DNA of 53,206 bases from Oscillatoria sp. PMC 1068.18. Lineage in GTDB: Bacteria; Cyanobacteriota; Cyanobacteriia; Cyanobacteriales; SIO1D9. Below are positions 248 to 47,732 of this stretch, one piece after another (position 1 is the first letter of the stretch; each line of letters begins with the position of its first letter). The translations under genes and the position numbers were made by a program. The notes beneath the pieces were generated by a model. That model made no database searches and was not told the DNA's origin. It saw only the letters and a list, made by a program, of their open reading frames with translations. The stretch is from contig JAWQFW010000006.1 in assembly GCA_035968095.1 (NCBI GenBank), positions 1-53,206 on the forward strand. Reading direction: 5' to 3'.

Positions 248-553
248 ATGTCAATAAAGTATCATTTTGACTGGAATCCTGTTAAAGACCAGCAAAATCG
301 ACGTAAACATAATCTCAGTTTTCAACAAGCTGCAACTGTTTTTCGCGACCCATTCCAGTTATCAATTTATGATGAACACCATAGTGAAGATGAAGAGCGT
401 TGGATTACGATAGGATTGGATAACAGGGAAGTTTTGCGGGTTGTGGTACATACCTTTGAGATGTTCGATGAGTCATTTTGTGAAATCCGGATCGTTTCAG
501 CACGTAAAGCCACAACCGAAGAAGCACAAGTCTATTATCAAAGAAGATTATGA
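248..553 (+). CDS. brnT: BrnT family ribonuclease toxin
   Basis: FDWNPVK..N.RKH.LSF..A..VF.DP, HS..EERWITIG and IRIVSARKAT motifs; 101 aa. Confidence 0.9.
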   Translation: MSIKYHFDWNPVKDQQNRRKHNLSFQQAATVFRDPFQLSIYDEHHSEDEERWITIGLDNREVLRVVVHTFEMFDESFCEIRIVSARKATTEEAQVYYQRRL

Positions 554-744
554 AAGCAAATTATGATTTTTCTCAAGGAGAACAGGGAAAGTTTTATCGT
601 TCTGATGCGGTATTTGAGTTTCCTATTTATCTCGAACCTGATGTTAATCAGTTTATGAGAGAATTAGCAAAGACACAAGGAATTGAGGTTGAAATTTTGG
701 TCAATCAGTGGTTAAGAAGTCAGATTGAGCGAGTGCGCTCATAG
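550..744 (+). CDS. BrnA-like antitoxin (RHH/CopG-like C-terminus)
   Basis: ATGA 4-bp overlap with brnT; MK..YDFSQG..GKFY N-terminus; 64 aa. Confidence 0.8.
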   Translation: MKANYDFSQGEQGKFYRSDAVFEFPIYLEPDVNQFMRELAKTQGIEVEILVNQWLRSQIERVRS

Positions 745-781
745 TCAATAATTTGTTGTTTGTTATAGAAGCAAAAGTATT

Positions 782-4997: not shown

Positions 4998-5960
4998 TTA
5001 TCTTTTTGCAGCGACAATTTCCCGCAAAGTCTGCTCAACACTGCGAGGTTGCCAACCTAAATCTTGACGCGCTTTCGTTGCATCCACACGCACACAGCGA
5101 TCGTAAATATAGTGTACTCTTTCTCGGCTCAAAGGCGGTTGCCAATTTAACAATTTACCAATTGGATCGAGAACATTTCCGACTAATCTAACTATAGCTT
5201 GAGGAGTTTCACCAGGGGCAGGAATTCCCGTTTCTTGACTGAGAAAAGCAAACATTTCTTCGGTAGTTAATTCCCCCGCCGAAATGATATATTTAGCACC
5301 AGGTTCACCTTTTTCTGCTGCTAAAAGCATCGCCATAACCAAATCGTCTACATGAACAATTCCCGTCACGCGAGATCCTCCCGCCCACAATTTTAACCCT
5401 CCCTTCAGAAATTGGTCAATAACCGGACCAAAATGAGGGTCATCTGCACCGAAAATTCCCGACGGTAACACACTCACCACAGGTAAACCTTGCGCGGCAA
5501 ATTCAGCTACTAATTGCTGGGCTGCGTATTTTGTGCGATCGTAAGCAGAAGAAAAGTCTTTTTGTTGTCTAATAAAAGTTTCATCAACAACTTCACCTTT
5601 AGTGTCACCAAATACACCAATCGTACTGCAATAAACCATTTTCTTAATTTTAGCAGCTTGGGCAGTTTCTAATACAGCGCGAGTTCCTTCGACGTTCACT
5701 TTTGCCATTTTCTCGGCATTAACTAAGCCTAATTCCACATAAGCTGCGGTATGAAAAACCCAGTCTACATCTTTCATTCCATCACCTAAAGCTTCTCTGT
5801 CGGTAATGTCACCATAAACTAATTTAATTGGGTAATCACCGAGACGTTCTAAGTTACTTGTTTTGCGAACCAAACCAACAACTTCATGACCTTTTTCTAG
5901 TAATAATTTTACTAAATGAGAGCCTGTAAATCCATTAGCCCCTGTTACAAATGCTTTCAT
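4998..5960 (-). CDS. NAD(P)-dependent epimerase/dehydratase (extended SDR, HpnA/DFR-like); candidate 3-keto-lipid reductase
   Basis: TGANGFTG, VFHTAA, YCST, catalytic YDRTK (YxxxK). The reductase role is inferred from context. Confidence 0.85.
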   Translation of the reverse strand: MKAFVTGANGFTGSHLVKLLLEKGHEVVGLVRKTSNLERLGDYPIKLVYGDITDREALGDGMKDVDWVFHTAAYVELGLVNAEKMAKVNVEGTRAVLETAQAAKIKKMVYCSTIGVFGDTKGEVVDETFIRQQKDFSSAYDRTKYAAQQLVAEFAAQGLPVVSVLPSGIFGADDPHFGPVIDQFLKGGLKLWAGGSRVTGIVHVDDLVMAMLLAAEKGEPGAKYIISAGELTTEEMFAFLSQETGIPAPGETPQAIVRLVGNVLDPIGKLLNWQPPLSRERVHYIYDRCVRVDATKARQDLGWQPRSVEQTLREIVAAKR

Positions 5961-6087
5961 AATATTTTTTGATATTTAATAGTTAAAAATTGGTAATTCA
6001 AGACTGAGCAATTGGGAATTTAGAAATTTATAATTGGCGAAAAAATTATGATTATATGAAATGGAAAATAAAATGCTAGGTCTGCTA

Positions 6088-6117
6088 TGTAGAGACTTTT
6101 GAGGCAACTTCTGTACA
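6088..6117. repeat. Degenerate copy of GTAGAGAC..GTCTCTAC REP-like palindromic repeat
   Basis: tgtagagacttttgaggcaacttctgtaca; resembles the perfect copy at 49373-49398. Confidence 0.55.
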
Positions 6118-6332
6118 AAATAATGATGTATAGCAAACATTTGTGTATTTCATATTATCTAGATTTAGCTAATAGTTACTTTCAAATTTATGCGAGCTTT
6201 ATAGTTACCATTTCCTAATTACTAATTCACAGTTTACAGTCCCCTTAATTGGAAATTTATTAACTTATAATTGGCGAGAAAGTTATCAGTTATTTAGAGT
6301 TGGTTAATAGTTATCTTCAACTTGATTCGAGT

Positions 6333-6448
6333 TTCCCAATTCCCAATCCCCAATCACCAATTCCCAATCCCCAATCACCAATTCCCAATCCCCAATCCTC
6401 CAATTCCGCCAATTCCCCCAATTCCCCTAATTCCTAATCCCTAACCCC
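6333..6448. repeat. STRR-type heptamer tandem repeat (CCCAATC/CCAATTC variants)
   Basis: Direct reading: ttcccaattcccaatccccaatcaccaa... ; overlaps the stop codon of 6434-7582. Confidence 0.9.
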
Positions 6449-7582
6449 TATTTTCTTCTCATAAATACGGTAAGTTTTGTCCAATTTTCCGCCCGATGCT
6501 TCAATTAAACGACGCGAAGGTAAATTACTTTCAAAAACGTGACCCAATTCCGCATATTTGTAGGGTTTACCTTTTTTAGTTGCTCCTTGAAGTCCTAAAT
6601 AAATTAACGCTAAAGGAACCATTTTGCGCCGATATTCTGGTAGAGAACAAATAATTACGACTCTCCCTCGGTCAATTTGTCGCCGATACCAGAGAAACTT
6701 CAGTTTTCCCCAGAAATTTAGTTTGCCGTTAAGATATTTTAGGGGAATATTATAATCAGGTAAACCCATAAAAAAGCCAATCATTTCACCATTATCTTCA
6801 GCGATATAAAAAGCATCTGCATCGACTAAAGTTTGTAACGATTTTGCTTCTTCAAGAAACTCCTCTTCGGTACGAGGAGTGGAACTATAGTTGTTAGCAA
6901 AACACTTATTAAAAAGCCGATAAAGCCGCAGCGCATCTGCCTCGAAAGCTTTACCTTTGAGATTAATTTGGCGAAAACTGATTCCCGATTTCCAAGCAAT
7001 GCGATAAGCTTTCGAGAACTTTTCTGGTAATGGTTGATCTAAAGGAAATTTATACGCATAAGCATCTTCTGCCTTTTCCCATCCTAATTGTTCCATAAAT
7101 TGAGGATAATAAGCAGGATTATAAGGCATCATTACCATTGGTGGTTCATCAAAGCCATCGACCAAAAATAAACATTTATTGTGAGTAGAAAGATCGATGG
7201 GTCCGCGAACCAGTGTCATTCCTTGTGCTTTTAACCAGTCACAAGCAGCAGCAATCAGGGCTTGGGCTATTTCCAAGTTTTCAATACATTCAAAAAAGCC
7301 AAATAAACCTACATTTTGACCTTCTTTTTCCACTAAACGTTGATTAACCGCAGCGACAATTCTCCCTACCGGAATTGAATCTTTGAGGGCAAGAAACTGC
7401 TGTAGTTGACCATATTTGAAGAAAGGATTGCTGGGTGCAAATTGCTTGGCGATTTCGCTACGCAAGGGGGCTACCCAGTGGGGGTCGTCGCGGTAAACAA
7501 GGGCTGGTACATCCAGAAACTTTGCCAAATCTTCTGGAGTAATAACAGCCCGAATTTCCAAATTTTCTGTTGACTTAGACAC
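6434..7582 (-). CDS. GNAT-fold N-acyltransferase, YghO/bacterial ceramide synthase (bCerS)-like
   Basis: Y.DDP.WVAPL, NPFF, FLA...PVGRI.A, G.FGFFE, WL...G...VRGP, GFD.PP.VMMPYN..YY, C-terminal E.N...K.YRIY motifs; GTG start 4 bp after the AOS gene stop. Confidence 0.75.
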   Translation of the reverse strand: MSKSTENLEIRAVITPEDLAKFLDVPALVYRDDPHWVAPLRSEIAKQFAPSNPFFKYGQLQQFLALKDSIPVGRIVAAVNQRLVEKEGQNVGLFGFFECIENLEIAQALIAAACDWLKAQGMTLVRGPIDLSTHNKCLFLVDGFDEPPMVMMPYNPAYYPQFMEQLGWEKAEDAYAYKFPLDQPLPEKFSKAYRIAWKSGISFRQINLKGKAFEADALRLYRLFNKCFANNYSSTPRTEEEFLEEAKSLQTLVDADAFYIAEDNGEMIGFFMGLPDYNIPLKYLNGKLNFWGKLKFLWYRRQIDRGRVVIICSLPEYRRKMVPLALIYLGLQGATKKGKPYKYAELGHVFESNLPSRRLIEASGGKLDKTYRIYEKKIGVRD

Positions 7583-7586
7583 TTAT

Positions 7587-8867
7587 TTATGCACTAATTG
7601 TGGGTCGATAAAGTAAGTCTCGCGTTGCTACTAAAGCAGCAATTAAACGATCCATTTCTTCTTGAGTATGGAGCGAATTTACAGTAATGCGGAGACGAGG
7701 TTTGGCGATAAACCAAATTGGTGAAATCCAAATCCCGTGGCTTTCCATCATCTCGCGAGCAAAGATTTTCGGATTAATTTCTGGTGGTAAAATGATTGGA
7801 ACAACATTAGTTTCACCGATCGCGGAAAAACCTGTTTCTGCGAGACGAGTTCGCAGGTAACGAGTATTAGCTTGCAACTTCTGCACCAATTCAGGAAATT
7901 GACGCACTTGACGAATACTCTCCAAAGCCGCAGCCGTATTTGGTGCTGGTAAAGAAATTGTCCCAATAGAAGTAGGAGAAACGTTCAACAAAGGTTTAAA
8001 TTCAGCGACATGAGTGCTGATGGCGGCTCCAGCCGAAGCTGCAAATTTAGAGAAAGTGGTTAAAATCAAGGGAACGATACCACGCGCGATCGCCTCTTGG
8101 GGTAAAATCCCGAAATGTTCGTAAATTCCCCTTCCCGTTGCACCAATCGCACCGCTAGCGTGAGCTTCGTCCATTAATAACACGCTACCAGGATAATTTT
8201 CCAGTACGTCTAACATTTCTGGGAGAGGAGCAATATCTCCGTCCATCGAGAAGACTGCATCAGAAACTACCAGAATTCGGTCATCAGGACGAGCATATCG
8301 CTTTAATTTCCGAGCTAAATCCTCCACGTTGCAGTGACGATAAGCTTTGACTCGTACTTGGGGACTATGACCAAATACTTTACCAGAACGAGTCCCCGCA
8401 TTAACTACCGCCGAGACGATACAACCGTGGTTGAGAACATCGGTCATAATTAAAGTCTCTCTGGTATGCTGAAACCCTGGAACCGGAATTGCCAGATGAC
8501 AAAAAGCATCTACTAAAGCCTGCATCGCCATCCAAGCGTTGAGAAACAGTTGGGTGTGGGGTAGATGCTTAAACTGAGAAATTTCCTCTTCTAGTTGACG
8601 GTGTAAGTCAATGCGACCGCTCAAAACCGAGCAGGAACTATTTGACGTACCATATTGCATAATTGAATCTATGGCTGCTTGTTTGACTCGTTCTGATTGA
8701 GTCAAACCTAAAACGTCGTTAGTGCAGAAAGTTAGCACTTTTTGACGTTTGCCAGTATTTTGCGCTTCAATTTCAACTAGATTACCTTGTTTGGCATGAC
8801 AAATAAATTCATCTGGATCTAGCCCGCTTTCGTACCAGCGCTGAACGTACTCTTTCACAACTTGCAC
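7587..8867 (-). CDS. PLP-dependent alpha-oxoamine synthase (SPT/BioF/Kbl family), serine-palmitoyltransferase-like
   Basis: D.LNH, YRHCN, SDAVFSMDGD, DEAHASG, PLP lysine in TTFSK, RLRITV; GTG start with GAGGAG SD. Confidence 0.85.
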   Translation of the reverse strand: MQVVKEYVQRWYESGLDPDEFICHAKQGNLVEIEAQNTGKRQKVLTFCTNDVLGLTQSERVKQAAIDSIMQYGTSNSSCSVLSGRIDLHRQLEEEISQFKHLPHTQLFLNAWMAMQALVDAFCHLAIPVPGFQHTRETLIMTDVLNHGCIVSAVVNAGTRSGKVFGHSPQVRVKAYRHCNVEDLARKLKRYARPDDRILVVSDAVFSMDGDIAPLPEMLDVLENYPGSVLLMDEAHASGAIGATGRGIYEHFGILPQEAIARGIVPLILTTFSKFAASAGAAISTHVAEFKPLLNVSPTSIGTISLPAPNTAAALESIRQVRQFPELVQKLQANTRYLRTRLAETGFSAIGETNVVPIILPPEINPKIFAREMMESHGIWISPIWFIAKPRLRITVNSLHTQEEMDRLIAALVATRDLLYRPTISA

Positions 8868-9097
8868 GGATTTACTCCTCTCACCTGTTTGATACCATTT
8901 GGCAAAGTTAGTTTACACTTCCATTGTTTAGAAACTTGAAGTATGGTAGCAGTCTACAGCTATAATTCAAAGACTCGCTTGGTGGTAGATTGTTCATTTT
9001 TTCTGGTGAGTTTTGCTAAAAAGCCTCATTAGTTGGGTGTTGAAGAGGGAATTTTGGCGGGGCGAGGGAAAGCGGAATTTAGTCAAAAATTGTGGAT

Positions 9098-10219
9098 TTA
9101 ACCGGAATTTTGGCTGACTTCCTCGACGCGATTGTTCTCCAAACTAGCTACTTTTTGGGTTGTGGATGCAGAATTTTGCTGAAATTGTTCATATTGACGC
9201 AGGATCAAGCGTTGGACGGCGATAATTGCGGGGTTAATTTCCACGTAGCGTCGTTGAGGGTTTTTGAGATAGGTTTGTTGTTCGCTTTCGACCATTTCGA
9301 TATCTTGGGCGAGAAATTTGAGTAAGACGAAGCGGGGTAACAAGAATTGTAGCGCAGGTTGGAGAGGGCGCAGTAGCCATTGGGGAAGACGAACTTTGAA
9401 GAAAAAGTAGGCAAAAGAACGGCTTTCGGTGGGGGAGATGGGCAAACGCATGAGGTATAAGGTGGAAACACCTTGGAGAGAGGTGTAGTAGTGGGGGTAG
9501 CGATATTGAATTGAGATTGGTAGAGTAGTTGTCTGGTCGGCGCGATCGCTTAATCCTAAAAATTTTGCCATTCGACCTCGATAGGATACGTTATATTCGG
9601 CACAAACACTGTTTTCGGTTTCTTTTAAATTTGTCAACACGGGGTCAAACCATCCTTGCAACCCCCGATGTAGGTAGCCGTGGAAAACGTCCATCGTGTT
9701 CTCGTTACACATGGAAAAATGCGCCTGGAAATGGGCGGAAACCGGAACCATTAACCACTCGTTTTGTTGGTCGAATTCTTTTATTTCTGGCGGTTGCTGG
9801 GTTGTAGCTAAGGAAATCTCGCCGGGAAATACCCAAATTAGGTTATATTTTTCTTGGACGGGATAACTCCGCACTGTCGCGCGAGGTAGCTTTTGCTCTT
9901 TTGGTAAATAAGGAATTTTCACGCATTCGCCACTACCGTTGAATTCCCAGCCATGATAAGCACAAGCAAGATTACAGCCAGTAACATTTCCTTTGTGTAA
10001 GGCAACACCACGATGGGGACATACGTCTGCTAAAGCATGAAGTTTACCCAACTCGTCCCGAAAAATTGCGAGATTTTCTTCCCAAATTGTGACAGCCAGA
10101 ATTTTTTCTGGCTGAAGTTGATTTGCCCAAGCTACGGGATACCAGTAATTTGGGTTAATGCCGACTTCTCTGACTTGGTTGCGGACTATTTGGCTGGTTA
10201 AGGCTGTCTGTAGTTTCAT
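9098..10219 (-). CDS. Rieske [2Fe-2S] non-heme iron oxygenase alpha subunit
   Basis: WYPV, CPHRG...CAYHGWEF Rieske ligands, ENTMDVFHGYLH mononuclear Fe motif, C-terminal QD. Confidence 0.92.
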   Translation of the reverse strand: MKLQTALTSQIVRNQVREVGINPNYWYPVAWANQLQPEKILAVTIWEENLAIFRDELGKLHALADVCPHRGVALHKGNVTGCNLACAYHGWEFNGSGECVKIPYLPKEQKLPRATVRSYPVQEKYNLIWVFPGEISLATTQQPPEIKEFDQQNEWLMVPVSAHFQAHFSMCNENTMDVFHGYLHRGLQGWFDPVLTNLKETENSVCAEYNVSYRGRMAKFLGLSDRADQTTTLPISIQYRYPHYYTSLQGVSTLYLMRLPISPTESRSFAYFFFKVRLPQWLLRPLQPALQFLLPRFVLLKFLAQDIEMVESEQQTYLKNPQRRYVEINPAIIAVQRLILRQYEQFQQNSASTTQKVASLENNRVEEVSQNSG

Positions 10220-10377
10220 TCCTTGACAGTTTGCGATCGCTTGTTGTTTATTGTCTCTTTGTTGTTTATTATTAGTGATTTTTCTGGTTTTGAGTCAAAA
10301 TCTCTTTTCCAAGGAAAAGTCACAAGTTGCTATTTTAGCTTTGTTTTTGATATTTTTTAGGGAAAAATTTATTACTG

Positions 10378-11532
10378 ATGTTTCGAGATCCGAAAATTTT
10401 AGTTTTACTTGCTGTAGGTTCCCTGACGACAATGGCGGGTGGAGTGGTTTCTCCTGTATTGCCAGAAATAATCGAACAGTTACAATTAGATCCGGCTTTG
10501 GCTGGTAATTTAGTTAGTCTACATTGCTTGACAATTGCGCTGTTCAGCCCTTTGTTAGGGATTTTGGCAGATCGAATTGGCAGATTGCAAATCTTGATTC
10601 CTTGTTTGGTTGGTTACGCTATTTTTGGTACGGCTGGGGCTTTTCTTGACGATCTTGCGCCGTTGTTGGTTAGTCGTGGTTTGTTGGGGGCTGCGAGTGG
10701 GGGTATTGCGGCGGCGAGTTTAGGTTTGTTAGGTAGTATGTATGAAGGGGAGGCGCGATCGCAAGCCTTGGGTTATGCTACTAGCACTTTAACTCTGACT
10801 GGGATTGCTTTTCCGCTTCTGGGTGGCTGGGTAGGTTCGTTTGATTGGCATTATGCTTTTTATCTTTACGGAATTGCGTTTCCTCTGGCTTTAATCGTGA
10901 TTTTAACTTTTGGGAAGCGATCGCCCCGAAAACCCAAAACTAAGGTCAAGCCAGATTCTTTCAAACTCAGTACCGTTTTAGCTAACCCAGAAACTCTGCG
11001 ACTGTTATTAACCCTCTCTCTAGCTTCAATTGCGATGTATGCTGTGGTTATTTACGCCCCTATCTACCTCAAACAAACAATTGGGGCTGGAAGTACCCTG
11101 AATGGGATTGTACTGGCTAGCAGAGCCGTAGGAGCAGCGATTATTTCCGCTTTTGGGGCGAAACCCCTCGCGAAAAAAATTGGTGGGGCTGGCGCGATCG
11201 CGTTTGGCTTTGGTTTAATGGCACTAACTTTAATAACAATTCCGGTATTATCTCAACTCAGTTTAATTCTCGTCACCGCCGTCTTTTTTGGCGTAGGATT
11301 TGGCTTAGTTTTACCGAATTTATATAACAGTTTAGCCAATCTTGCCCCCGCAGAATTACGTTCCAGCGTCCTCGCAGCCGGGACTGGCGCAGGATTTTTA
11401 GGTCAATTTATTTCGCCATTACTGTTAGGAATTATTTTAGGTATTAGTGGCTTAGAAACGGTTTTCTATGTCGCCGCAATCGTCGCCATGACTGCCGGAT
11501 TTTTGTTGTTTGTCCCTCGCTTTGAAACTTAG
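10378..11532 (+). CDS. MFS transporter (DHA1-like efflux)
   Basis: Motif A G.LADRIGR, about 12 hydrophobic segments, P.LGG. Confidence 0.9.
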   Translation: MFRDPKILVLLAVGSLTTMAGGVVSPVLPEIIEQLQLDPALAGNLVSLHCLTIALFSPLLGILADRIGRLQILIPCLVGYAIFGTAGAFLDDLAPLLVSRGLLGAASGGIAAASLGLLGSMYEGEARSQALGYATSTLTLTGIAFPLLGGWVGSFDWHYAFYLYGIAFPLALIVILTFGKRSPRKPKTKVKPDSFKLSTVLANPETLRLLLTLSLASIAMYAVVIYAPIYLKQTIGAGSTLNGIVLASRAVGAAIISAFGAKPLAKKIGGAGAIAFGFGLMALTLITIPVLSQLSLILVTAVFFGVGFGLVLPNLYNSLANLAPAELRSSVLAAGTGAGFLGQFISPLLLGIILGISGLETVFYVAAIVAMTAGFLLFVPRFET

Positions 11533-11556
11533 AATAAAATAATCACCGAATCGGTA

Positions 11557-11642
11557 AACGGGCAGCTACACAAACAACGTAATCATGTCGCCAAACCCGT
11601 CAACGGGCGGCTACACGGACAAAGCCCGCCTTCGCGGGCTAG
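11557..11642. repeat. Short dispersed repeat: duplicated AACGGGC(A/G)GCTACAC plus AGCCCGC-CTTC-GCGGGCT hairpin
   Basis: Direct reading of the sequence; the hairpin lies downstream of the MFS gene. Confidence 0.6.
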
Positions 11643-11780
11643 GTTGGTTGAGAATGAGATGGTAAGCTGGTGATATCTTTTGCTTCACTCAGGATGACAT
11701 AAAATAAATTAGTCTGAGATAAATTGCGCTAGAAACATCAACGATAATGTAAGAGAAAATACTGTTGGTTAGCTTGATCT

Positions 11781-12140
11781 CTATAACGGAATATGGGTAA
11801 TCCGATTTTGATAATCGCTTTCGTCACCAGCTTCAGCAATGAAAACAAGATTGTTAATAATTTCTCCGATTGTAAATTTTTTACGCAGGACGAATATACC
11901 AGGACTTTGATGATTTTGTTCTAAATGTTCGGTGAGATGAACGGGCATGGAACGTCGATTATTTGTCAGCAGAATAAAGTTATTTTGTTCGCACCAAAGT
12001 AAAATTTCTGGGTCTAGTGTTCCTTTAGCTGGAGCATCAGGATCGCCTACCATCAAAACAGTTGTTTGAGGAAGATAGCGCCTTAATTGTTCTTGATAAA
12101 GTGGAGGTAAATTTTCATCAATAAGGTATTGAATACTCAT
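11781..12140 (-). CDS. DUF5615 family PIN-like toxin (VapC45-like)
   Basis: YLIDENL, D.EIL.W, ILLTNN, H...H..PGI motifs; 4-bp overlap with the DUF433 gene. Confidence 0.8.
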   Translation of the reverse strand: MSIQYLIDENLPPLYQEQLRRYLPQTTVLMVGDPDAPAKGTLDPEILLWCEQNNFILLTNNRRSMPVHLTEHLEQNHQSPGIFVLRKKFTIGEIINNLVFIAEAGDESDYQNRITHIPL

Positions 12141-12475
12141 AAAATCTTTTCTCGTTCGGCTTTGAGTTGACGCAGGCGAAGAATATATTCAGGTGGGTTT
12201 TCATTTTGCTGTTTTTCTGATTCTTGACAATAGTTTAACCAGTCGGTCATGTATTGAGTAACTTCTTCTTGGTTATGTAAAAAGTAGAGAATAGTCGCAT
12301 AGATTTGTTCTAAAGTTAAATTACTATAAAGGTTAGCAATTGTTTCGGCGGATTGATGACGATAGATATATTCGTATAAGATGGTTTCTATGCCTACTCT
12401 TGTACCTTTGAGTCGAATGTCATAGGAAGTAAGAAATTCAAAGTAATCTTTTAGTTGCATGGTTGATGACTCCAA
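12137..12475 (-). CDS. DUF433 domain antitoxin (VapB45-like)
   Basis: IRLKGTRVGIETIL...LTLEQIYATILY. Confidence 0.85.
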   Translation of the reverse strand: MESSTMQLKDYFEFLTSYDIRLKGTRVGIETILYEYIYRHQSAETIANLYSNLTLEQIYATILYFLHNQEEVTQYMTDWLNYCQESEKQQNENPPEYILRLRQLKAEREKIL

Positions 12476-12476
12476 G

Positions 12477-12758
12477 TTAAGTAATAGTTAGTAGTTGTGC
12501 GTGAGTTTGACGATCTGCGATAAAATCTGCTTCGTTGTAAGCTAAATCGACACCTTTGGCTTGAAGAAAAGCATCAACTTCTAAACGAGTAGACATTCCT
12601 AATAATTCTTTGACTTTACCGACACTGATCGAACCTTCTCGGTAAGCTTCTACGACAACAATTTCTAGTAACCTACGTTCTAAGCTACCCCATTTAGTTT
12701 CTAGTACCTCGGCGATTTCTTCTGGTAAGGCAATTTGAATTTTCATCAATTTTTGCAC
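12477..12758 (-). CDS. UPF0175 family protein (putative antitoxin)
   Basis: AYREGSISVGK..ELLGM.TR.EV..FL...GV.L.Y...D...D; the true start may be the internal ATG (MKIQI). Confidence 0.8.
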   Translation of the reverse strand: MQKLMKIQIALPEEIAEVLETKWGSLERRLLEIVVVEAYREGSISVGKVKELLGMSTRLEVDAFLQAKGVDLAYNEADFIADRQTHAQLLTIT

Positions 12759-12856
12759 GAATTATCTGGCTTATAAATCTATTTTAAGTTCAAGTTACAA
12801 TCGTAGCTATTACTTGTCATTCTGCACTTTGAGCGAGCGAGATAACATCTTTTCCT

Positions 12857-12960
12857 GGTGACGTGGCTCCGCCGTGTCACCTACTCCAGAGGCTCTGCCT
12901 CCAGGAAACTTGAATGGAGGCAGAGCCTCCTAAAACAGTTCCCTGCCGGAGACAGGGAAC
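12857..12960. repeat. Three-hairpin GAGGCTCTGCCTC-type dispersed repeat / MITE-like element
   Basis: Hairpins at 12857-12881, 12889-12929 (15-bp perfect stem) and 12938-12960 (8-bp stem). Confidence 0.7.
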
Positions 12961-12965
12961 CATTT

Positions 12966-13004
12966 AAAAAAAAATTAAGCCGCCCATTTACGGGTTCGGC
13001 TTAA
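12966..13004 (-). terminator. Intrinsic terminator of the hydroxylase-DUF962-amidohydrolase unit
   Basis: TTAAGCCG...CGGCTTAA stem followed by a T-run on the minus strand, just downstream of the stop at 13022. Confidence 0.65.
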
Positions 13005-13021
13005 CAAGATTTCGGGAAAAA

Positions 13022-14410
13022 TTACACGACAGCAGTAGCTAACTTTTCCGGTAAAGATTGACGCAAACGAGATCCATACAACGCTAAAGAGTTACCACCC
13101 AACAACAAACCTAAATGCTCTTTGTCGTAGTCGGCAACATTCGCAGCATCTTTGACACAATTTTCCAAGACACCATCCCAATGTCCGTAGTCACCAGAGA
13201 AACAAGCGACACGCTTCCCAACTTCACCCATCGCTACGGGAAGATATGCGGGGGCGGGGTCATCTGACTCAAAGGAGGTAAAGATTTGTCCGCGTTCAAA
13301 ATACTCCATTGGGTCGCGGTGACGCAAGTCGTAATGTTCGTACAAACTTGCATCATCAATTTTAGTAGGATCGTGGCTAGCGTTCCATAATAAATCGAAG
13401 AGGTTTTTCGCTTTACTAATAATATTGATGTTGTCTTTACCGCCTTTTTCTTGAATCATCAATTTGGTAAATTCCATCAAGGAAGGGCGATAAGGGTTTT
13501 TCGGGTCGAAGTCGCGAATGCGCTTTTCCCAGTGTTCGTGGAAGGCGTGGGCGAGGTCTGGTAGCCAGCCGCAACCGCCTTCTAAGAAGCCGACTCTGAG
13601 GGTGGGAAATTGCTCGAATGCGCCGTCAAAGACCATTCTCGCTAAGGCGTGTTGTTGTTGGTTACGCTGCACGAAAATGTGGGTTAAGACGAAGGTTTCC
13701 ATGTGGTCGGAAATACCACCCATCATGCTAGAACCGGGTCCGCCGTGAATGCCTAAACCGATGTTTAAATCGACTGCGGCTTGTAAGATGGGGCGGAAGT
13801 CGGGGTGGGAAATTGCTTTACAGGTGCGAATTTCGGGGAAAGCGTCGGGGGCTTTGGGATGGGGAACTGGTAAGTTGGGGGCGACAGCGACGCTGATTAA
13901 ACCGAGTTCGTTGACGCAGCGATACATTTCGGCGACAGCCGCATCTACGTCTTGGAGAGGAATTACGCCGATGGGTTTGAGACGGTTGTCGTAGCCTTTG
14001 CAGTCGTCAGCGATATAGTTGTTGTAAGCTTGGCAAAGGGCGATCGCGAAATCTTTGTCTAAAATACTGGAAAAAATTAGGTTCAGCGTTCCGTAGATAA
14101 CTTGGATATCAACGCCTTCTTGCTCCATGTGTTCCAAGCGTACTCGATTAAACATTGCGCCGAGGGTGGTTTCCGGATGTAGGGTACGAAAGCCGCCTTT
14201 TCCTAAACCTTGAGGTTGGGGAAACATTCGCTTGAAGTCGTTTTTCCCGGTATTAGGGTTAAAATCAATTAGTTGCGCCCGTTGATCTCCGAGACTGTCG
14301 ATGACTAAACCAATCCGGTCTTGATATGCTGAATCGAGATAGTCACGTAAAATCAAGGGATTTTCGAGTTTGTGTGCGTCAGCGTCGATGACAATTAAAC
14401 CTTCGTACAT
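13022..14410 (-). CDS. Amidohydrolase_2 family metallo-hydrolase/decarboxylase
   Basis: IDADAH, EGVD.QVIY, AYN.Y, IHGG, F..FP.LRVGFLEGGCGW, SGDYGHWD motifs. Confidence 0.85.
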   Translation of the reverse strand: MYEGLIVIDADAHKLENPLILRDYLDSAYQDRIGLVIDSLGDQRAQLIDFNPNTGKNDFKRMFPQPQGLGKGGFRTLHPETTLGAMFNRVRLEHMEQEGVDIQVIYGTLNLIFSSILDKDFAIALCQAYNNYIADDCKGYDNRLKPIGVIPLQDVDAAVAEMYRCVNELGLISVAVAPNLPVPHPKAPDAFPEIRTCKAISHPDFRPILQAAVDLNIGLGIHGGPGSSMMGGISDHMETFVLTHIFVQRNQQQHALARMVFDGAFEQFPTLRVGFLEGGCGWLPDLAHAFHEHWEKRIRDFDPKNPYRPSLMEFTKLMIQEKGGKDNINIISKAKNLFDLLWNASHDPTKIDDASLYEHYDLRHRDPMEYFERGQIFTSFESDDPAPAYLPVAMGEVGKRVACFSGDYGHWDGVLENCVKDAANVADYDKEHLGLLLGGNSLALYGSRLRQSLPEKLATAVV

Positions 14411-14469
14411 TAATTCTCCTTTAGGGTTGAAATTACCGCCAAAAGCGGATCTTAATTGAAATAAAGTTG

Positions 14470-14778
14470 TTAGTTACTGGTTTGTTGACGAAAAATTTGG
14501 CGTAAACCAAACCAATTGTCAAAAGACCAAGACATCGAAGCGAGAATCACGATACCGGGATATTTTCTAAAGGCTGGTTCGTTTTTCTCGAAAAAGATGT
14601 GTCCGCTAAGGGCGAATACTTGCGTCAAGACGACGCAAATCGCTGTTAAACGCCAATCGATGAATAAACAGATTACCGCCGCGATCGCCACCAGATTCGT
14701 GAGGTGGTGTAAAATTTGGTTGATTGGATGCTGGTGAGAAGCGATAAAATGGGCTTTTGCTTCCTGAAAATAACTCAA
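14470..14778 (-). CDS. Mpo1-like / DUF962 membrane protein
   Basis: H.HPIN..LH and GH.FFEKNEPA motifs; TTG start with AGGAG SD. Confidence 0.8.
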   Translation of the reverse strand: MSYFQEAKAHFIASHQHPINQILHHLTNLVAIAAVICLFIDWRLTAICVVLTQVFALSGHIFFEKNEPAFRKYPGIVILASMSWSFDNWFGLRQIFRQQTSN

Positions 14779-14898
14779 ATTTTGTCTCCTAATTAGCCAA
14801 TAGTTAGAGTTTTCAGCGCTTTAGGGAAGGATACACCAAATTTCTCGTTTCGGACAATTTTTCCTCAATTCGGCGATCGTTGGGCATAACTCAGCGAT

Positions 14899-14947
14899 CA
14901 ACTGACAACTGATAACTGGTCACTGATAACTGGTCACTGATAACTGA
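14899..14947. repeat. STRR-type heptamer repeat (ACTGATA/ACTGGTC)
   Basis: caactgacaactgataactggtcactgataactggtcactgataactga. Confidence 0.85.
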
Positions 14948-14949
14948 AA

Positions 14950-15432
14950 TTACCACCACTTCAGTTGCAAGTAACCAAGTTGATTTGCTCTCAATTCCTC
15001 GTCAGTCAACCATTCCACTGATTTATATGTCCCGAAAATTCGATCCCACCAATCGACCGCTAAACCGAAATTATGATGCCACATATTATATTTGTGATGA
15101 ACATAATGTACAGGCATTTTCATCCAAAAACATTTGGTCGGATTTTCGTGTTGTAGCTGATGAGCATAAGCCGAAAAAGCGGCATAAACTAAACAACCTG
15201 AACACCAACCTAATCCTACATCCCAAGCGAAGAAGAACGGCAAACCGATTGCGATAATACTACCTCGAACATAATCGCGGAACTCCCAGAACACGCCTTG
15301 TCCTTCATTGCGACGGTGATGATCTCGATGACGTTCCCCGACACGAGGATTATAGTGCATTAAACGATGAATCCAGTATTCGACAAAACTCGCCAAAATA
15401 AAAGCTAAGATAAAAAACGCGATCGCTCTCAT
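14950..15432 (-). CDS. Fatty acid hydroxylase/sterol desaturase superfamily di-iron enzyme
   Basis: His boxes HRLMH, HRDHH, H..QH, HYVHH; NFG...WWDRIFGT. Confidence 0.88.
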   Translation of the reverse strand: MRAIAFFILAFILASFVEYWIHRLMHYNPRVGERHRDHHRRNEGQGVFWEFRDYVRGSIIAIGLPFFFAWDVGLGWCSGCLVYAAFSAYAHQLQHENPTKCFWMKMPVHYVHHKYNMWHHNFGLAVDWWDRIFGTYKSVEWLTDEELRANQLGYLQLKWW

Positions 15433-15603
15433 TGCTGTTTACTCCTCACCTCACCATACTACATCTCAAAAATACCAGGGAACTCCCCACTAATTATCTG
15501 ATTCATTACCAATAACCATCCTTCAGCACATACTAAAAAATTTTAGTTTGTACTCCGAAGACTATAATACTTTAAGTTTATTTACAATTGACATCAGCAG
15601 CAA

Positions 15604-17292
15604 ATGACCAACTTATTTTTCTCACTATTGACTTCTTTTAGCGAACGTGCTAAAGATAATTTCCTCAAGAAACTTAATCAGACTCCGACAATTCAAGAAA
15701 AGTTCCTTCTCCAACTCTTACAAGCCCATAAAAACACCGAATTAGGTCAGAAATATCAACTCCAAGACATTAAAACTATCGATCAATTTCGAGAACAAAT
15801 CCCAGTTCTACCCTACGCTAATTACGAACCTTATATCAACCGCATTGCCCAAGGCGCAAAAAACGTTTTAACCCCCGATCCTGTAGTTTACTTAAACATG
15901 ACCAGTGGGTCAACCGGAAACCCCAAACTAATTCCCGTAACCAAACGCTTTCAAAACACATTAGGAAAAGCCAACTTTATCAGCATTGGCTTCCTCTCCC
16001 AAGCCCTCCGTTCTCACGGCTCACAGTTTGGTAAACTTCTTGCCACCAACTCACCCAAACTCTACGGAACCACCGATGCAGGAATTCCCTACGGACCAGC
16101 AAGCACAGGAGTTTTACGCATGGGAAAATGGGTTTATGGACAACTATTTGCCATGCCCTACGAAACCCTCAAAGTTGATGAATTAGTCGCTCGTCATTAT
16201 GTAGCTTTACTCTTTGCTTTACAAGACACCAACCTGCGGGGAATTGGGCAAAACTTCCCCATGTTATTACTACGTTTAGCTAACTATTTAGAAACTTACT
16301 CTGAAGAACTAATTCATAATCTAGAAACAGGAACTATTGCTAACTGGCTACAAATAGAACCCGAACTCAGAACCAAACTAGAAAATATTTTTCACGCTAC
16401 ACCCCAACGCGCCCAAGAATTAAAAGAAATCCTCCATTCCGAAGGAAAATTAACTCCCAAACTCGCCTGGAAAAACCTCTCATTTTTAGTTAGCGCGAGA
16501 GGAGGAACATCAGACTTTTACTTCCAACGTTTTCCAGAATACTTTGGCGATACACCTGGGTTTGGTGCTGTTTATTCTTCCTCAGAAGGTACATTCAGCA
16601 TCAACCATAGCCTCAATGTAGACAGTAGCATTTTAGCAATTGAAAGTGGCTTTTTTGAATTTGTCCCTCAAGATCAATGGTCAGCAGAACATCCCAAAAC
16701 ATTACTTGCAACCGAAGTAAAACCAGGGCGATTATATCGAATTTTAACCACAAATTATAGCGGTTTTTATCGTTATGATATTGGCGATGTAGTTGAAGTA
16801 GTTGGTTTTCACGAACAAACCCCATTATTAGTCTTTCGCTTCCGTCAAGGTGGGATAATTTCTGCGACAACCGAGAAAACAACCGAGTTTCAAGTCACGA
16901 AAGTAATGGAAGCTTTGCAACAAGAATTTAACGTAGCTTTAGAAGATTTTTGTATTACTTTATCCGCAGGTGAATTTCCCGCACGTTATTTAGTTAATAT
17001 AGAATTAGCTAAGGGTCAAAATTTACCAGATTTACCCGGCTTTTTAGCAAGTTTCGATAACAAGCTAAAAGAGGCTAATAGCTATTATGAACTCAAACGA
17101 CGCGACCAAATACAACCTCCTCGCTTGCGTCTGCTTCAACCTGGTAGTTTCGGTATTATCCGTCAGCGTCAATTAGACAAAGGAATGCCTGATTTTCAGC
17201 TTAAGTTTCCCCATACCAGCGAAGATCGAAATTTCTTAGCTGGTTTAGAAATAGAAAAGGAGGTTAGTAGCGAAGAATTGAGTCTCACCTAA
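15604..17292 (+). CDS. GH3 family acyl-acid amido synthetase (adenylate-forming)
   Basis: TSGSTG.PKLIP, YSSSEG, FFEF.P, YRYDIGDVV. Confidence 0.9.
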   Translation: MTNLFFSLLTSFSERAKDNFLKKLNQTPTIQEKFLLQLLQAHKNTELGQKYQLQDIKTIDQFREQIPVLPYANYEPYINRIAQGAKNVLTPDPVVYLNMTSGSTGNPKLIPVTKRFQNTLGKANFISIGFLSQALRSHGSQFGKLLATNSPKLYGTTDAGIPYGPASTGVLRMGKWVYGQLFAMPYETLKVDELVARHYVALLFALQDTNLRGIGQNFPMLLLRLANYLETYSEELIHNLETGTIANWLQIEPELRTKLENIFHATPQRAQELKEILHSEGKLTPKLAWKNLSFLVSARGGTSDFYFQRFPEYFGDTPGFGAVYSSSEGTFSINHSLNVDSSILAIESGFFEFVPQDQWSAEHPKTLLATEVKPGRLYRILTTNYSGFYRYDIGDVVEVVGFHEQTPLLVFRFRQGGIISATTEKTTEFQVTKVMEALQQEFNVALEDFCITLSAGEFPARYLVNIELAKGQNLPDLPGFLASFDNKLKEANSYYELKRRDQIQPPRLRLLQPGSFGIIRQRQLDKGMPDFQLKFPHTSEDRNFLAGLEIEKEVSSEELSLT

Positions 17293-42721: not shown

Positions 42722-44170
42722 ATGACTACGACTGAAACGACCGTAATTCCCCGCTATAATTCTGGCGCAATCAAAGCGAACAATCCTTGGAAAGGTTATT
42801 TATTCTTAGGTTTATTATCGAATGCTTTGGTTTGGGGGGCGGCGATTACTTATCTAGAAGTGACTGAGCCGACTTATACTAGCGAGTGGGCGATTAGTAT
42901 TCCGGGAATTGATGCGACGACGAGTGTGGAAGTACCGGGAATTGGACGTGCTGATTCTCAAAGTGAGTCGCCTTATCGTCATGATAATCACGATCCGAGG
43001 GAAAATTATAAGTTTATTGCTGAAAGTGATGAGGTGGTGACTTCAGCTTCTAGTGAAGTTGAGTTACCGAAAGAGGATTTTGGCGAACCTCGGATTAAGA
43101 TTGTAGATAATACGACCTTGATGCGGTTTGAGATTCACGGAGATAATCCTCAACAAGCTCAAGAAAAGGCGATCGCTTTTCAAGAAGTTTTTGAAACGAA
43201 GCTTGAACAACTACGACTTCAGGAAATTGAACAGCAAGATAGTGGTTTAAAGGATTTACTCAAAGAGTCACAAGAAAATTTATTGGCAGCGCAAAAGCGT
43301 TTATCTGAGTATAAAGCTAGTTCGGGTTTGAGTTCCTCAGAGCAATTGCGCGATCTTTCGATTAATATTGAGGAGTTACGCCGACTGCGGGCGGAAACTT
43401 TGGCTCAGTTACAGCAAGTTAGTGGACGTTTTCAACAATTATCTCAAGATTTGGAACTATCTACTACTCAGGCTAATGATTCTTTTGTCCTGAAGTCCGA
43501 TCCTTTGTTTCAGCAGCATTTGGCTGATTATAATCGTGCTAGTACCGAGTTGGCGACTTTACAATCGAAGTTTTTACCGCTTAATCCGTCGGTAATCGCC
43601 AAACAAAGAGAAAAAGATACTGCGGAAGCGGCTTTGTTAAGGCGTAGCGCGGCTTTGTTGGGACAACCTGTAACTGGCTCTACTTTAGAATTACCAGATA
43701 TTGCTAATAGTGGTGAAGCGAGTGCGCGAGATAATCTTTCCCAAGAGTTGATTTCGCTACAATCTCAGCAGCAAGGTTTGGCTTTGCAAGCGCAAGAGTT
43801 GACTAACCAAATCGAACAACTGGAAAAGCGTTTACAGTCGCAAGCGCAGCAAGAGTCAGGATTGGAAAATTTACGTCGCGATGTCCAAATTGCGGAAGCG
43901 GTGTTTACTTCGACGTTAACTAAGTTGGATTTGAGTAAGTCGAAGATTGCTTCTTCTTATCCCCAAACTCAATTGTTGATTCAGCCGAGTTTACCAGATG
44001 AACCGACTGCACCGAAAGAGAAGTATGTTTGGTTGGGGACGGCGATGTGTTCTTTCTTTTTGACTACGGGAATGCTATCTTTGTGGTGGCGATCGCGCCA
44101 AATCCACAAACAACAGCAGCAAAAGCTACAACCAAGCGAAATTGTTAATTTACCTGTTCTGAAACGTTAA
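42722..44170 (+). CDS. GumC/Wzc-like polysaccharide co-polymerase without a kinase domain
   Basis: Two TM segments flanking a long coiled coil; P.Y.S, P.LP..P..P; no Walker A. Confidence 0.8.
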   Translation: MTTTETTVIPRYNSGAIKANNPWKGYLFLGLLSNALVWGAAITYLEVTEPTYTSEWAISIPGIDATTSVEVPGIGRADSQSESPYRHDNHDPRENYKFIAESDEVVTSASSEVELPKEDFGEPRIKIVDNTTLMRFEIHGDNPQQAQEKAIAFQEVFETKLEQLRLQEIEQQDSGLKDLLKESQENLLAAQKRLSEYKASSGLSSSEQLRDLSINIEELRRLRAETLAQLQQVSGRFQQLSQDLELSTTQANDSFVLKSDPLFQQHLADYNRASTELATLQSKFLPLNPSVIAKQREKDTAEAALLRRSAALLGQPVTGSTLELPDIANSGEASARDNLSQELISLQSQQQGLALQAQELTNQIEQLEKRLQSQAQQESGLENLRRDVQIAEAVFTSTLTKLDLSKSKIASSYPQTQLLIQPSLPDEPTAPKEKYVWLGTAMCSFFLTTGMLSLWWRSRQIHKQQQQKLQPSEIVNLPVLKR

Positions 44171-44173
44171 CTT

Positions 44174-45154: not shown

Positions 45155-45167
45155 TTAAGAAACTTTT

Positions 45168-45195
45168 GTAGAGACATTATAAATAACGTCTCTAC
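45168..45195. repeat. REP-like palindromic repeat copy between convergent genes
   Basis: gtagagacattataaataacgtctctac. Confidence 0.75.
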
Positions 45196-45206
45196 CTTAA
45201 TCAAAT

Positions 45207-47717: not shown

Positions 47718-47732
47718 GTTAAATTAGCATTT

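What the first reader, a model, noticed from the sequence alone, without database searches (positions are those of the whole stretch)
4998..17292. Extended ~12 kb lipid-amide cluster with oxidative tailoring, adenylation and export genes
Seen: around the triad lie a Rieske oxygenase (same strand, directly upstream), a divergent MFS exporter, a hydroxylase-DUF962-amidohydrolase unit and a divergent GH3 synthetase. Several of these genes have strong GAGGAG/AGGAG SD sites; the AOS and hydroxylase genes share GAGGAGTAAA. There is no PKS/NRPS, so standard BGC rules would probably miss it. Inference: one pathway for a hydroxylated or desaturated N-acyl lipid or a secreted signal, now split by a TA insertion at 11.7-12.9 kb.
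Basis: partly seen in the sequence, partly recalled or inferred. Interest (0 to 1): 0.8.

Follow-up and report, generated by a model that had tools for sequence, protein, structure and literature searches.

The report
Cyanobacterial ceramide-like lipid tailoring pathway
Nine genes that are inherited together in scattered cyanobacterial lineages likely build and oxidatively decorate an undescribed ceramide-like lipid, and the gene annotated as an 'amidohydrolase' is predicted to be a two-metal oxygenase.

Summary
Confirmed. All nine genes are intact, and both halves belong together. In 151 cyanobacterial-phylum genomes, the AOS orthologue occurs in 14. GNAT, SDR and MFS orthologues occur in exactly those 14; GH3 and hydroxylase in 13, 'amidohydrolase' and DUF962 in 11, Rieske in 10, and none elsewhere at orthologue level. 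The flanking GST gene does not track. All nine lie together in two other lineages but are dispersed in several others.

The GNAT is a bacterial ceramide-synthase (YghO/bCerS) relative. The AOS has a remodelled active site and is not a canonical SPT; the SDR is not a CerR orthologue.

Correction: the 'amidohydrolase' carries the metal ligands of amidohydrolase-related dinuclear oxygenases, with a Pro-to-Gly change that the published motif filter misses. It is nearly mutually exclusive with an OlsC-like acyl 2-hydroxylase, which hints at the same job.

Best reading (0.5): one pathway to an oxidised, GH3-amidated ceramide-like lipid; no product is shown. The toxin-antitoxin-like trio interrupts no gene. 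This scan noted both halves before on other genomes; I found no paper describing the pathway.

The parts
4998..5960 (-). Extended SDR (HpnA/DFR-like NAD(P)H reductase); predicted 3-keto reductase
   Evidence: PF01370 E 2e-41; best NCBIfam HpnA 206 bits vs cut-off 367.65; TGxxGxxG, S112, YxxxK intact; orthologue in the same 14 of 151 genomes as AOS; only 21% to the E. coli spt-locus epimerase
6434..7582 (-). bCerS/YghO-family N-acyltransferase (tandem GNAT)
   Evidence: 31% identity over 378 aa to E. coli BL21 YghO, E 5e-56; PMC9386255 names yghO the homologue of the Caulobacter ceramide N-acyltransferase; same 14 of 151 genomes
7587..8867 (-). Divergent PLP alpha-oxoamine synthase (GTG start), distinct from the genome's BioF
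   Evidence: Below every AOS equivalog cut-off; best PDB hit S. multivorum SPT, E 6e-38; K274, H147, D233, H236, N50 kept, substrate-site positions changed; 14 of 151 genomes at 72% identity or more
9098..10219 (-). Rieske non-haem iron oxygenase (SdmA-like subfamily); accessory tailoring enzyme
   Evidence: PF00355 + VanA_C; SdmA model 241.9 vs cut-off 600; Rieske and mononuclear-iron motifs intact; 10 of the 14 AOS genomes; in 28 of 34 AOS loci
10378..11532 (+). MFS transporter; predicted exporter or flippase of the product
   Evidence: PF07690 E 5e-58; orthologue (53% or more) in the same 14 genomes, only 29-31% hits in 4 others; spare copies lie near spare GH3 copies
11781..12758 (-). DUF5615 + DUF433 + UPF0175 trio (toxin-antitoxin-like, label recalled); not part of the pathway
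   Evidence: Pfam; paralogues on other contigs; flanked by multicopy repeats; lies between converging 3' ends; no UPF0175 match in the 596 bp behind the oxygenase gene in the same-genus genome
13022..14410 (-). Amidohydrolase-fold protein with the ligand set of amidohydrolase-related dinuclear oxygenases (ARO); predicted acyl-chain hydroxylase
   Evidence: D11-x-H13, H222, E277, D407-Y-G-H410-W-D412 invariant in 22 sequences; DYGHWD in 119 of 120 homologues; best PDB hit DitZ; top four fold matches are AROs; 11 of the 14 AOS genomes and no other
14470..14778 (-). Mpo1-like (DUF962) small membrane protein, TTG start; predicted 2-hydroxy fatty acid dioxygenase
   Evidence: PF06127 48.9 bits vs cut-off 24; H15, H24, H25, H60, E64 invariant in 10 sequences; same 11 genomes as the ARO, always adjacent
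14950..15432 (-). Short membrane di-iron hydroxylase/desaturase (FA_hydroxylase superfamily)
   Evidence: PF04116 E 7e-16; four His boxes; 13 of the 14 AOS genomes at 70% or more, 3 other genomes at 49-57%
15604..17292 (+). GH3 acyl-acid amido synthetase; predicted ATP-dependent amide ligase
   Evidence: PF03321/23571/23572; three nucleotide-binding motifs intact; best PDB hit JAR1, E 4e-40; OlsH model 75.7 vs cut-off 620; 13 of the 14 AOS genomes at 52% or more, 32% or less in 20 others

Best explanation
These nine co-inherited genes likely form one pathway that is predicted to make an oxidised, ceramide-like amino lipid carrying an extra amide. Inferred steps: (1) the AOS condenses a fatty acyl thioester (probably acyl-ACP from general fatty-acid synthesis, as the cluster has no ACP) with an amino acid, probably not plain serine because its substrate pocket is remodelled, giving a 3-keto long-chain base; (2) the bCerS-like GNAT N-acylates it; (3) the SDR reduces the ketone; (4) the GH3 uses ATP to join a carboxylate of the pathway to an amino acid, adding a second amide; (5) the membrane di-iron enzyme and, where present, the Rieske oxygenase hydroxylate or desaturate the chains; (6) the dinuclear oxygenase 2-hydroxylates an acyl chain, the job an OlsC-like enzyme would do in genomes that lack it, and the Mpo1-like protein shortens or recycles the 2-hydroxy fatty acid; (7) the MFS moves the product across the inner membrane. 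Shown: gene content, family assignments, motifs, co-inheritance, and the oxygenase/OlsC alternation. Inferred: every substrate, the order of steps and the product.
For: Co-inheritance in a 151-genome panel: AOS 14; GNAT, SDR, MFS the same 14; GH3 13 of 14; hydroxylase 13 of 14; ARO and Mpo1-like 11 of 14; Rieske 10 of 14; no orthologue-level hit outside. The 14 span nine families in several orders. Control: the next gene (GST) is in 24 of 151, only 7 of them AOS-positive. Linkage: 14 of 34 AOS loci carry at least one right-half gene within about 20 kb; L020 and L098 carry all nine; L097 carries eight types without interruption. GNAT is a full-length YghO relative; AOS-GNAT-reductase is the known bacterial ceramide set (PMC11087976; PMC9386255). 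Recurring neighbours in other genomes are acyl-chain enzymes: OlsC-like hydroxylase, desaturase, cyclopropane synthase, JmjC, B12 radical SAM. ARO versus OlsC-like among 25 AOS genomes: 14 ARO only, 8 OlsC-like only, 1 both, 2 neither; p = 3e-4, with at least 3 label changes forced on the AOS tree. A 52% paralogue of the hydroxylase sits in a different FAAL-ACP-AOS cluster in G031. Mpo1 acts on 2-hydroxy fatty acids in yeast sphingolipid turnover (PMC10398889).
Against: No product or activity was measured. The AOS misses all SPT cut-offs (165.6/640, 164.3/500, 118/670) and is as far from E. coli Spt (28%) as from BioF. The SDR is not the best match of the E. coli reductase in this genome. There is no dedicated ACP or acyl-ACP synthetase. 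Only 6 of 9 genes are near-universal; Rieske, ARO and Mpo1-like are dispensable, G015 lacks the whole right half and G028 lacks GH3 and ARO. The halves are unlinked in G003, G012, G053 and G121. Co-inheritance cannot tell one product from two. Kin are not independent, and five of the OlsC-like genomes are of unstated completeness. The ARO fold margin over decarboxylases is small (Z 30.5 vs 28.3, model pLDDT 67), and the alignment profile ranked ACMSD slightly above DitZ.
Confidence: 0.5

Rival explanations
1. Two parallel phosphorus-free amide lipids are kept together: a ceramide-like lipid (AOS, GNAT, SDR) and a separate N-acyl amino acid lipid made by GH3 in the manner of OlsH, sharing hydroxylases and transporter.
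For: Bacterial GH3 OlsH makes N-acyl ornithine from free fatty acid (PMC12493201). OlsC- and OlsE-type hydroxylases modify ornithine lipids (PMC12971839). Extra GH3 copies travel with MFS and OlsC-like genes away from the AOS. Two AOS genomes lack GH3.
Against: GH3 was not found without the AOS in 137 AOS-negative genomes at orthologue level, which an independent lipid would allow. OlsH cut-off missed, and no OlsI-type alpha/beta-hydrolase in the cluster.
Confidence: 0.2
2. The product is a small secreted N-acyl amino-alcohol or amino-ketone signal or defence compound, which GH3 conjugates, the oxygenases tune and the MFS exports.
For: The MFS is strictly co-inherited; its best models are efflux pumps, all below cut-off. 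GH3's best PDB hit is the jasmonate conjugator JAR1. Patchy distribution. No head-group glycosyl or phospho transferases and no Lpt paralogues in the cluster, unlike the E. coli locus.
Against: No receptor or regulator recurs in the 34 AOS loci inspected by eye. bCerS-family enzymes make two-chain lipids. Accessory genes are membrane-lipid enzymes such as cyclopropane synthase. Autoinducer-synthase model score is low (93.7 vs 428).
Confidence: 0.15
3. The left half makes an ordinary serine ceramide, and the ARO-Mpo1-hydroxylase unit is a turnover module that breaks it down by alpha-oxidation.
For: Best PDB hit of the AOS is an SPT. Mpo1 is catabolic in yeast. Several AROs are catabolic (PMC13154177). 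Ceramides with unbranched bases were reported from two cyanobacteria (PMC8895605).
Against: Invariant changes at positions shared by Spt, BioF and the other AOS proteins. GH3 is left without a role. The ARO alternates with a biosynthetic-type OlsC-like hydroxylase.
Confidence: 0.1
4. The genes tailor hopanoids or sterols (SdmA-like Rieske, HpnA/SdmB-like SDR, sterol-desaturase family), or are chance neighbours.
For: Best NCBIfam models of Rieske and SDR are SdmA and HpnA/SdmB; this genome has squalene-hopene cyclase.
Against: No cyclase above cut-off in 6 of 10 cluster-bearing genomes; both models are far below cut-off; chance is excluded by co-inheritance and the GST control.
Confidence: 0.03

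Closest known systems
Bacterial ceramide pathway Spt - bCerS (aca/YghO) - CerR (epi) with AcpR/AasR (Caulobacter crescentus, E. coli BL21)
   Same: AOS + YghO-family N-acyltransferase + NAD(P)-dependent reductase in one run; GNAT 31% over full length; AOS catalytic core intact.
   Different: AOS below all SPT cut-offs with a changed pocket (TTFSK for GTFSK, Gly at the Phe272 position of S. multivorum SPT, NAWMAM for the usual GY/FxAN, four-residue deletion in the PAVP-type loop). Reductase HpnA-like rather than CerR-like. No ACP or acyl-ACP synthetase, no Lpt paralogues. Adds GH3, MFS, Rieske, ARO, Mpo1-like.
Amidohydrolase-related dinuclear oxygenases (DitZ, PtmU3, AibH2, SfbO)
   Same: PF04909 barrel with N-terminal D-x-H, a His and a Glu aligned to DitZ, and C-terminal Asp-His-Asp; top four VIA matches are AROs.
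   Different: C-terminal motif D-Y-G-H-W-D, not D-x-P-H-x-D/E, so the ScanProsite filter of PMC13154177 would miss it. No Rieske ferredoxin beside it. Ala at gamma1 with Trp at gamma4 fits neither metal class cleanly. Paired with an Mpo1-like protein in every genome checked.
OlsH/OlsI ornithine-lipid pathway and plant GH3 ligases (JAR1); OlsC/OlsE modifiers
   Same: GH3 with all three nucleotide-binding motifs; OlsC-like and FA_hydroxylase-family neighbours.
   Different: 75.7 vs 620 bits on the OlsH model; no OlsI; tied to an AOS/bCerS set rather than an O-acyltransferase.
Yeast Mpo1 2-hydroxy fatty acid dioxygenase
   Same: PF06127 above cut-off; conserved His and Glu residues; sphingolipid-type context.
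   Different: Only 102 aa; catalytic residues could not be checked against the primary papers (not held); bacterial activity untested.

Membership tests
Bacterial ceramide pathway (Spt-bCerS-CerR) | PLP alpha-oxoamine synthase with catalytic Lys, His, Asp | tested here: met
   K274, H147, D233, H236, N50 invariant
Bacterial ceramide pathway (Spt-bCerS-CerR) | The synthase is an SPT orthologue (equivalog score, serine-site residues) | tested here: not met
   165.6/640, 164.3/500, 118/670 bits; 28% to E. coli Spt; pocket changes
Bacterial ceramide pathway (Spt-bCerS-CerR) | bCerS/YghO-family N-acyltransferase | tested here: met
   31% over 378 aa, E 5e-56; only YghO hit in the genome
Bacterial ceramide pathway (Spt-bCerS-CerR) | CerR/epi orthologue | tested here: not met
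   21%, E 1e-13; another SDR of this genome is the better match; best model HpnA, below cut-off. Only the E. coli protein was available as reference.
Bacterial ceramide pathway (Spt-bCerS-CerR) | Dedicated ACP and acyl-ACP synthetase (Rhodobacteria type) | tested here: not met
   None among the cluster's ORFs of 80 aa or more; not required in all ceramide producers (recalled)
Bacterial ceramide pathway (Spt-bCerS-CerR) | Production of 3-ketosphinganine and ceramide | not testable with these tools
   Needs enzyme assay and lipidomics
ARO dinuclear oxygenases | N-terminal D-x-H on strand 1 | tested here: met
   D11-A12-H13; DAH in 119 of 120 homologues; definition in PMC13154177 section 7
ARO dinuclear oxygenases | Central His and bridging Glu | tested here: met
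   H222 and E277 align with DitZ His and Glu, where ACMSD has His for the Glu; invariant
ARO dinuclear oxygenases | C-terminal D-x-P-H-x-D/E motif, strict form | tested here: not met
   DYGHWD in 119 and DYAHWD in 1 of 120: all three ligand positions kept, the non-ligand Pro replaced
ARO dinuclear oxygenases | Fold closer to AROs than to PF04909 decarboxylases | tested here: inconclusive
   DitZ Z 30.5 (rmsd 4.3, 356 aligned), PtmU3 30.1 (3.7, 333), best decarboxylase 28.3 (3.3, 314); Foldseek mixed
ARO dinuclear oxygenases | Two-metal cofactor and O2-dependent activity | not testable with these tools
   Needs metal analysis, EPR and assay
GH3 acyl-acid amido synthetases | Three nucleotide-binding motifs and the GH3 domains | tested here: met
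   TSGSTGNPK 100, VYSSSE 323, YRYDIGD 389; Pfam; motifs as given in PMC12493201
OlsH/OlsI ornithine-lipid pathway | OlsH equivalog with an OlsI acyltransferase partner | tested here: not met
   75.7 vs 620 bits; no alpha/beta-hydrolase in the cluster
Mpo1 2-hydroxy fatty acid dioxygenases | PF06127 domain | tested here: met
   48.9 vs 24 bits
Mpo1 2-hydroxy fatty acid dioxygenases | Published catalytic residues | not tested
   Primary papers not held
SdmA/SdmB sterol demethylase or hopanoid tailoring | Equivalog scores and a triterpene cyclase in every host | tested here: not met
   241.9/600 and 146.7/600; cyclase above cut-off in only 4 of 10 cluster genomes

The most novel reading that the evidence does not exclude
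Cyanobacteria make a new class of hybrid amide lipid: a sphingoid-type backbone from a non-serine amino acid, N-acylated by a bCerS relative and given an amino-acid head group by a GH3 ligase. An overlooked subfamily of dinuclear oxygenases acts as its acyl 2-hydroxylase and, with the Mpo1-like protein, forms a two-gene bacterial alpha-oxidation unit.
Probability: 0.25. Interest if true: 0.88.

Novelty: new variant of a known kind. Interest (0 to 1): 0.7.

Why it matters
Whether and how cyanobacteria make sphingolipids is open. A 2022 study found no characterised cyanobacterial sphingolipid enzyme and showed that the single AOS of Nostoc punctiforme is not an SPT (PMC8895605). This cluster supplies concrete candidates: a second AOS clade, separate from BioF, tied to a ceramide-synthase relative, plus a predicted list of producer and non-producer lineages for lipidomics. 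It also offers a GH3 in a new context and an ARO subfamily (over 100 homologues at 74% or more) that the published motif misses, with a testable guess at its reaction from its alternation with OlsC-like enzymes. Without PKS or NRPS genes, rule-based cluster finders would probably not flag it (not run here).

Tried and rejected
AOS structure prediction: pLDDT 49, pTM 0.45, unusable, so no fold search was run on it. ARO + Mpo1-like complex prediction: 'no answer', score 0.00, not used either way. Co-expression: RNA-library contigs of two studies carry a relative about 88-90% identical across both halves, but the neighbouring control stretch is covered just as continuously, so transcription and co-expression are not shown. 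A short join across 11640-12978 in one run is best explained by repeats and was not taken as an empty site. Promoter and terminator scans: 18 and 9 sites against 24.5 and 13.3 in shuffles, no signal. Hopanoid link rejected. A 'stop inside' the G015 GNAT was first noted as decay; it is the terminal stop and the gene is intact. No AOS match on plasmids at E 1e-60. The context of the non-cyanobacterial relative P0242 was not retrieved; the metagenome scan returned three cyanobacterial-type loci and one ordinary AOS. ESM Atlas gave only family names. No solved structure of a bCerS relative. The Nat Chem Biol 2022 ceramide paper and the two Mpo1 papers are not held. A conserved upstream peptide before the AOS was considered and dropped because the spacing of the motif to the start varies by 1-3 nt.


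Full report
OBSERVATION. The window is cyanobacterial: all named close homologues are cyanobacteria. The nine genes lie at the stated coordinates with intact frames and motifs. Gaps are SDR-473-GNAT-4-AOS-230-Rieske, 158 bp to the divergent MFS, and ARO-59-Mpo1-171-hydroxylase, 171 bp to the divergent GH3. AGGAG precedes 4 of 9 genes against a lenient background of 327 of 3034 long ORFs (p = 0.011). The shared GAGGAGTAAA is real but occurs 33 times genome-wide. The DUF5615/DUF433/UPF0175 trio has paralogues elsewhere, is flanked by multicopy repeats and lies between two converging 3' ends, so it interrupts nothing. In the same-genus genome G001 the halves end at contig edges, so the junction cannot be seen; the 596 bp behind its oxygenase gene hold repeats and no UPF0175 match.

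ARE THE HALVES ONE UNIT? I searched eight of the nine genes plus the MFS in one panel of 151 genomes drawn evenly from the phylum (own genome included). AOS orthologues (72% or more) were found in 14. GNAT (59% or more; 11 other genomes only 27-32%), SDR (65% or more) and MFS (53% or more; 4 others 29-31%) were in exactly those 14. GH3 (52% or more) was in 13 of the 14; 20 other genomes, all outside the class, had hits of 32% or less. The hydroxylase (70% or more) was in the same 13, with 49-57% hits in 3 others. The amidohydrolase-fold protein (74% or more) and the Mpo1-like protein (59% or more) were in the same 11 (one 33% Mpo1-like hit elsewhere). The Rieske orthologue (56% or more) was in 10, beside a widespread 35-40% paralogue. 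The 14 genomes span nine families; Fisher tests give p = 7e-18 by genome and 1e-6 by family for GH3, overstated because kin are not independent. As a control, the next gene (GST, 90 bp after GH3) was in 24 of 151 genomes, 7 of them AOS-positive.

Physical linkage: of 34 loci of up to 21 kb around an AOS orthologue, 28 held the Rieske, 25 the GNAT, 20 the MFS, 17 the SDR and 14 at least one right-half gene (L026 adds a split GH3). L020 and L098 hold all nine genes. L097 holds eight types with no interruption and L003 eight with insertions. Against: in G003, G012, G053 and G121 the modules lie far apart; G015 lacks the right half; G028 lacks GH3 and the oxygenase. So the genes are sometimes unlinked but not independent.

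THE CORE. The GNAT is 31% identical over 378 residues to E. coli BL21 YghO, which lies beside spt; PMC9386255 (passages) lists yghO as homologue of the Caulobacter ceramide N-acyltransferase. PMC11087976 (passages) describes the Spt, bCerS, CerR order. The AOS keeps the PLP machinery but misses all equivalog cut-offs. It forms its own small subfamily, with relatives down to 36% and one named Pseudomonadota MAG protein at 50%. It differs from E. coli Spt, the genome's BioF and 68 other AOS proteins at an otherwise conserved Arg (S80), in the phosphate-binding turn (NAWMAM), at G148-C149, at G302 and by a four-residue deletion near 390. By the alignment, C79, I301 and G302 correspond to Ser81, Met271 and Phe272 of S. 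multivorum SPT, residues that PMC10196870 (passages) places at the substrate site and the neighbouring hydrophobic core. I infer a non-standard amino acid or acyl donor; which one is not shown. The SDR is HpnA-like and only 21% identical to the E. coli reductase. The pathway therefore works like bacterial ceramide synthesis but fails the SPT and CerR membership tests.

THE 'AMIDOHYDROLASE'. Its best PDB hit is DitZ, with PtmU3, AibH1H2 and SfbO-type proteins interleaved with ACMSD; the alignment profile put ACMSD marginally first. PMC13154177 (passages and sections 7, 13, 14; supplements not seen) defines amidohydrolase-related dinuclear oxygenases by an N-terminal D-x-H and a C-terminal D-x-P-H-x-D/E, said to be absent from characterised hydrolases and decarboxylases. 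PMC10811679 (first third) describes the site. This protein has D11-x-H13, H222, E277 and D407-Y-G-H410-W-D412, invariant in 22 sequences; 119 of 120 homologues read DYGHWD and one DYAHWD. All ligands are present, but the strict motif is missed at the Pro. A model (pLDDT 67) matched four AROs first (Z 30.5-28.6) with decarboxylases at 28.3, so the fold alone does not decide. I put about 0.8 on a dinuclear oxygenase. I reached this before seeing the scan's notes, which agree.

A POINTER TO ITS REACTION. Other genomes place an OlsC-like 2-oxoglutarate hydroxylase (275 vs 450 bits) beside GH3 or MFS. Among 25 AOS-positive genomes checked, 14 have the oxygenase only, 8 the OlsC-like gene only, 1 both and 2 neither. 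Fisher p = 3e-4; on an AOS tree of 23 of them (G050 and G121 not fetched) starred branches force at least 3 changes. Five of the OlsC-like genomes have no stated completeness. OlsC 2-hydroxylates an acyl chain of ornithine lipids (PMC12971839, passages), and yeast Mpo1 alpha-oxidises 2-hydroxy fatty acids (PMC10398889, passages). Both point to C2 of an acyl chain; this is inference.

GH3, HYDROXYLASE, MFS. GH3 keeps the three motifs given in PMC12493201 (passages), where the bacterial GH3 OlsH makes N-acyl ornithine; it is not an OlsH orthologue. Spare GH3 copies lie near spare MFS copies. Other recurring neighbours are a desaturase, a cyclopropane synthase, a JmjC protein and a B12 radical-SAM protein. 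A 52% paralogue of the hydroxylase lies in an unrelated FAAL-ACP-AOS cluster in G031, though the paralogue in G035 has no such neighbours. Hopanoid tailoring is rejected: no cyclase in 6 of 10 hosts.

MECHANISM AND ODDS. One pathway to an oxidised ceramide-like lipid with an added GH3-made amide: 0.5. Two parallel amide lipids: 0.2. Secreted signal: 0.15. Ordinary ceramide plus turnover module: 0.1. Triterpenoid tailoring or chance: 0.03. Gene content, motifs, co-inheritance and the oxygenase/OlsC alternation are shown; substrates, order and product are inferred.

NOVELTY. Paper searches returned no description of this cluster; the library lacks most subscription papers. The Nat Chem Biol 2022 ceramide paper was not held, and its supplementary homologue list may include cyanobacterial entries. 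PMC8895605 (first part and passages) reports ceramides from two cyanobacteria, no characterised enzyme, and a BioF-type identity for the only AOS of N. punctiforme. PMC11334938 (passages) treats Spt-like proteins beside bCerS and CerR as likely sphingolipid producers. PMC11324152 (passages) does not mention cyanobacteria. Verdict: new variant of a known kind, interest 0.7.

Noticed in passing
L120 (G000:C170:66-11779): A second AOS cluster in the same genome: inositol-1-phosphate synthase, FAAL, FAAL-ACP-AOS fusion (1078 aa), classical SDR, LicD, Stealth, GT4, CarS-like and DAGK-family kinase. Candidate inositol-phospho-sphingolipid pathway with a different logic.
   Followed up: partly
L117:5834-15157 (G031): FAAL-ACP-AOS fusion (441.6 bits on the Bacteroidota SPT model, cut-off 640), classical SDR, FAAL, GT4, flippase and a 52% paralogue of the window's hydroxylase.
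   Followed up: partly
window 8865-8890 and 31 AOS loci: The AOS starts with GTG in 31 of 31 loci, most behind an AAGGTGAGRGGAG-like extended ribosome-binding motif; similar GGTG(A/T)GA words precede some GH3 genes. Possible conserved translational control.
   Followed up: partly
L002, L003, L101, L107, L114: A B12-binding radical-SAM protein (DUF4070) recurs beside the hydroxylase/oxygenase unit, twice in L101; the best hit in this genome is only 36%.
   Followed up: partly
L021, L097, L122, L123, L108: Tandem or extra GH3 copies (up to three in G050 and G168), often near an MFS, an OlsC-like or a JmjC gene.
   Followed up: partly
L026:3597-6801; L002:6684-7370; L022:9215-9988: GH3 and Rieske in pieces in L026, and shortened Rieske genes in L002 and L022; decay or assembly error not distinguished.
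   Followed up: no
P0242 and P0244-P0250: Rare, more distant members (36-50%) of the AOS subfamily, one from a Pseudomonadota MAG; their gene context was not retrieved.
   Followed up: partly
window 248-3298: A small ORF and an 838-aa DEAD/ResIII helicase in a low-GC stretch (33%), possibly a mobile or defence island.
   Followed up: no
window 6335-6430, 11540-11640, 12850-13000, 14900-14950: Short tandem repeats and multicopy palindromic elements in the intergenic gaps of the cluster.
   Followed up: no
window 35029-41286 and 42722-53132: A 2085-aa probably secreted repeat protein and a polysaccharide-type cluster (glycosyltransferases, flippase, glycoside-hydrolase-like ORF), judged by eye from the translations only.
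   Followed up: no
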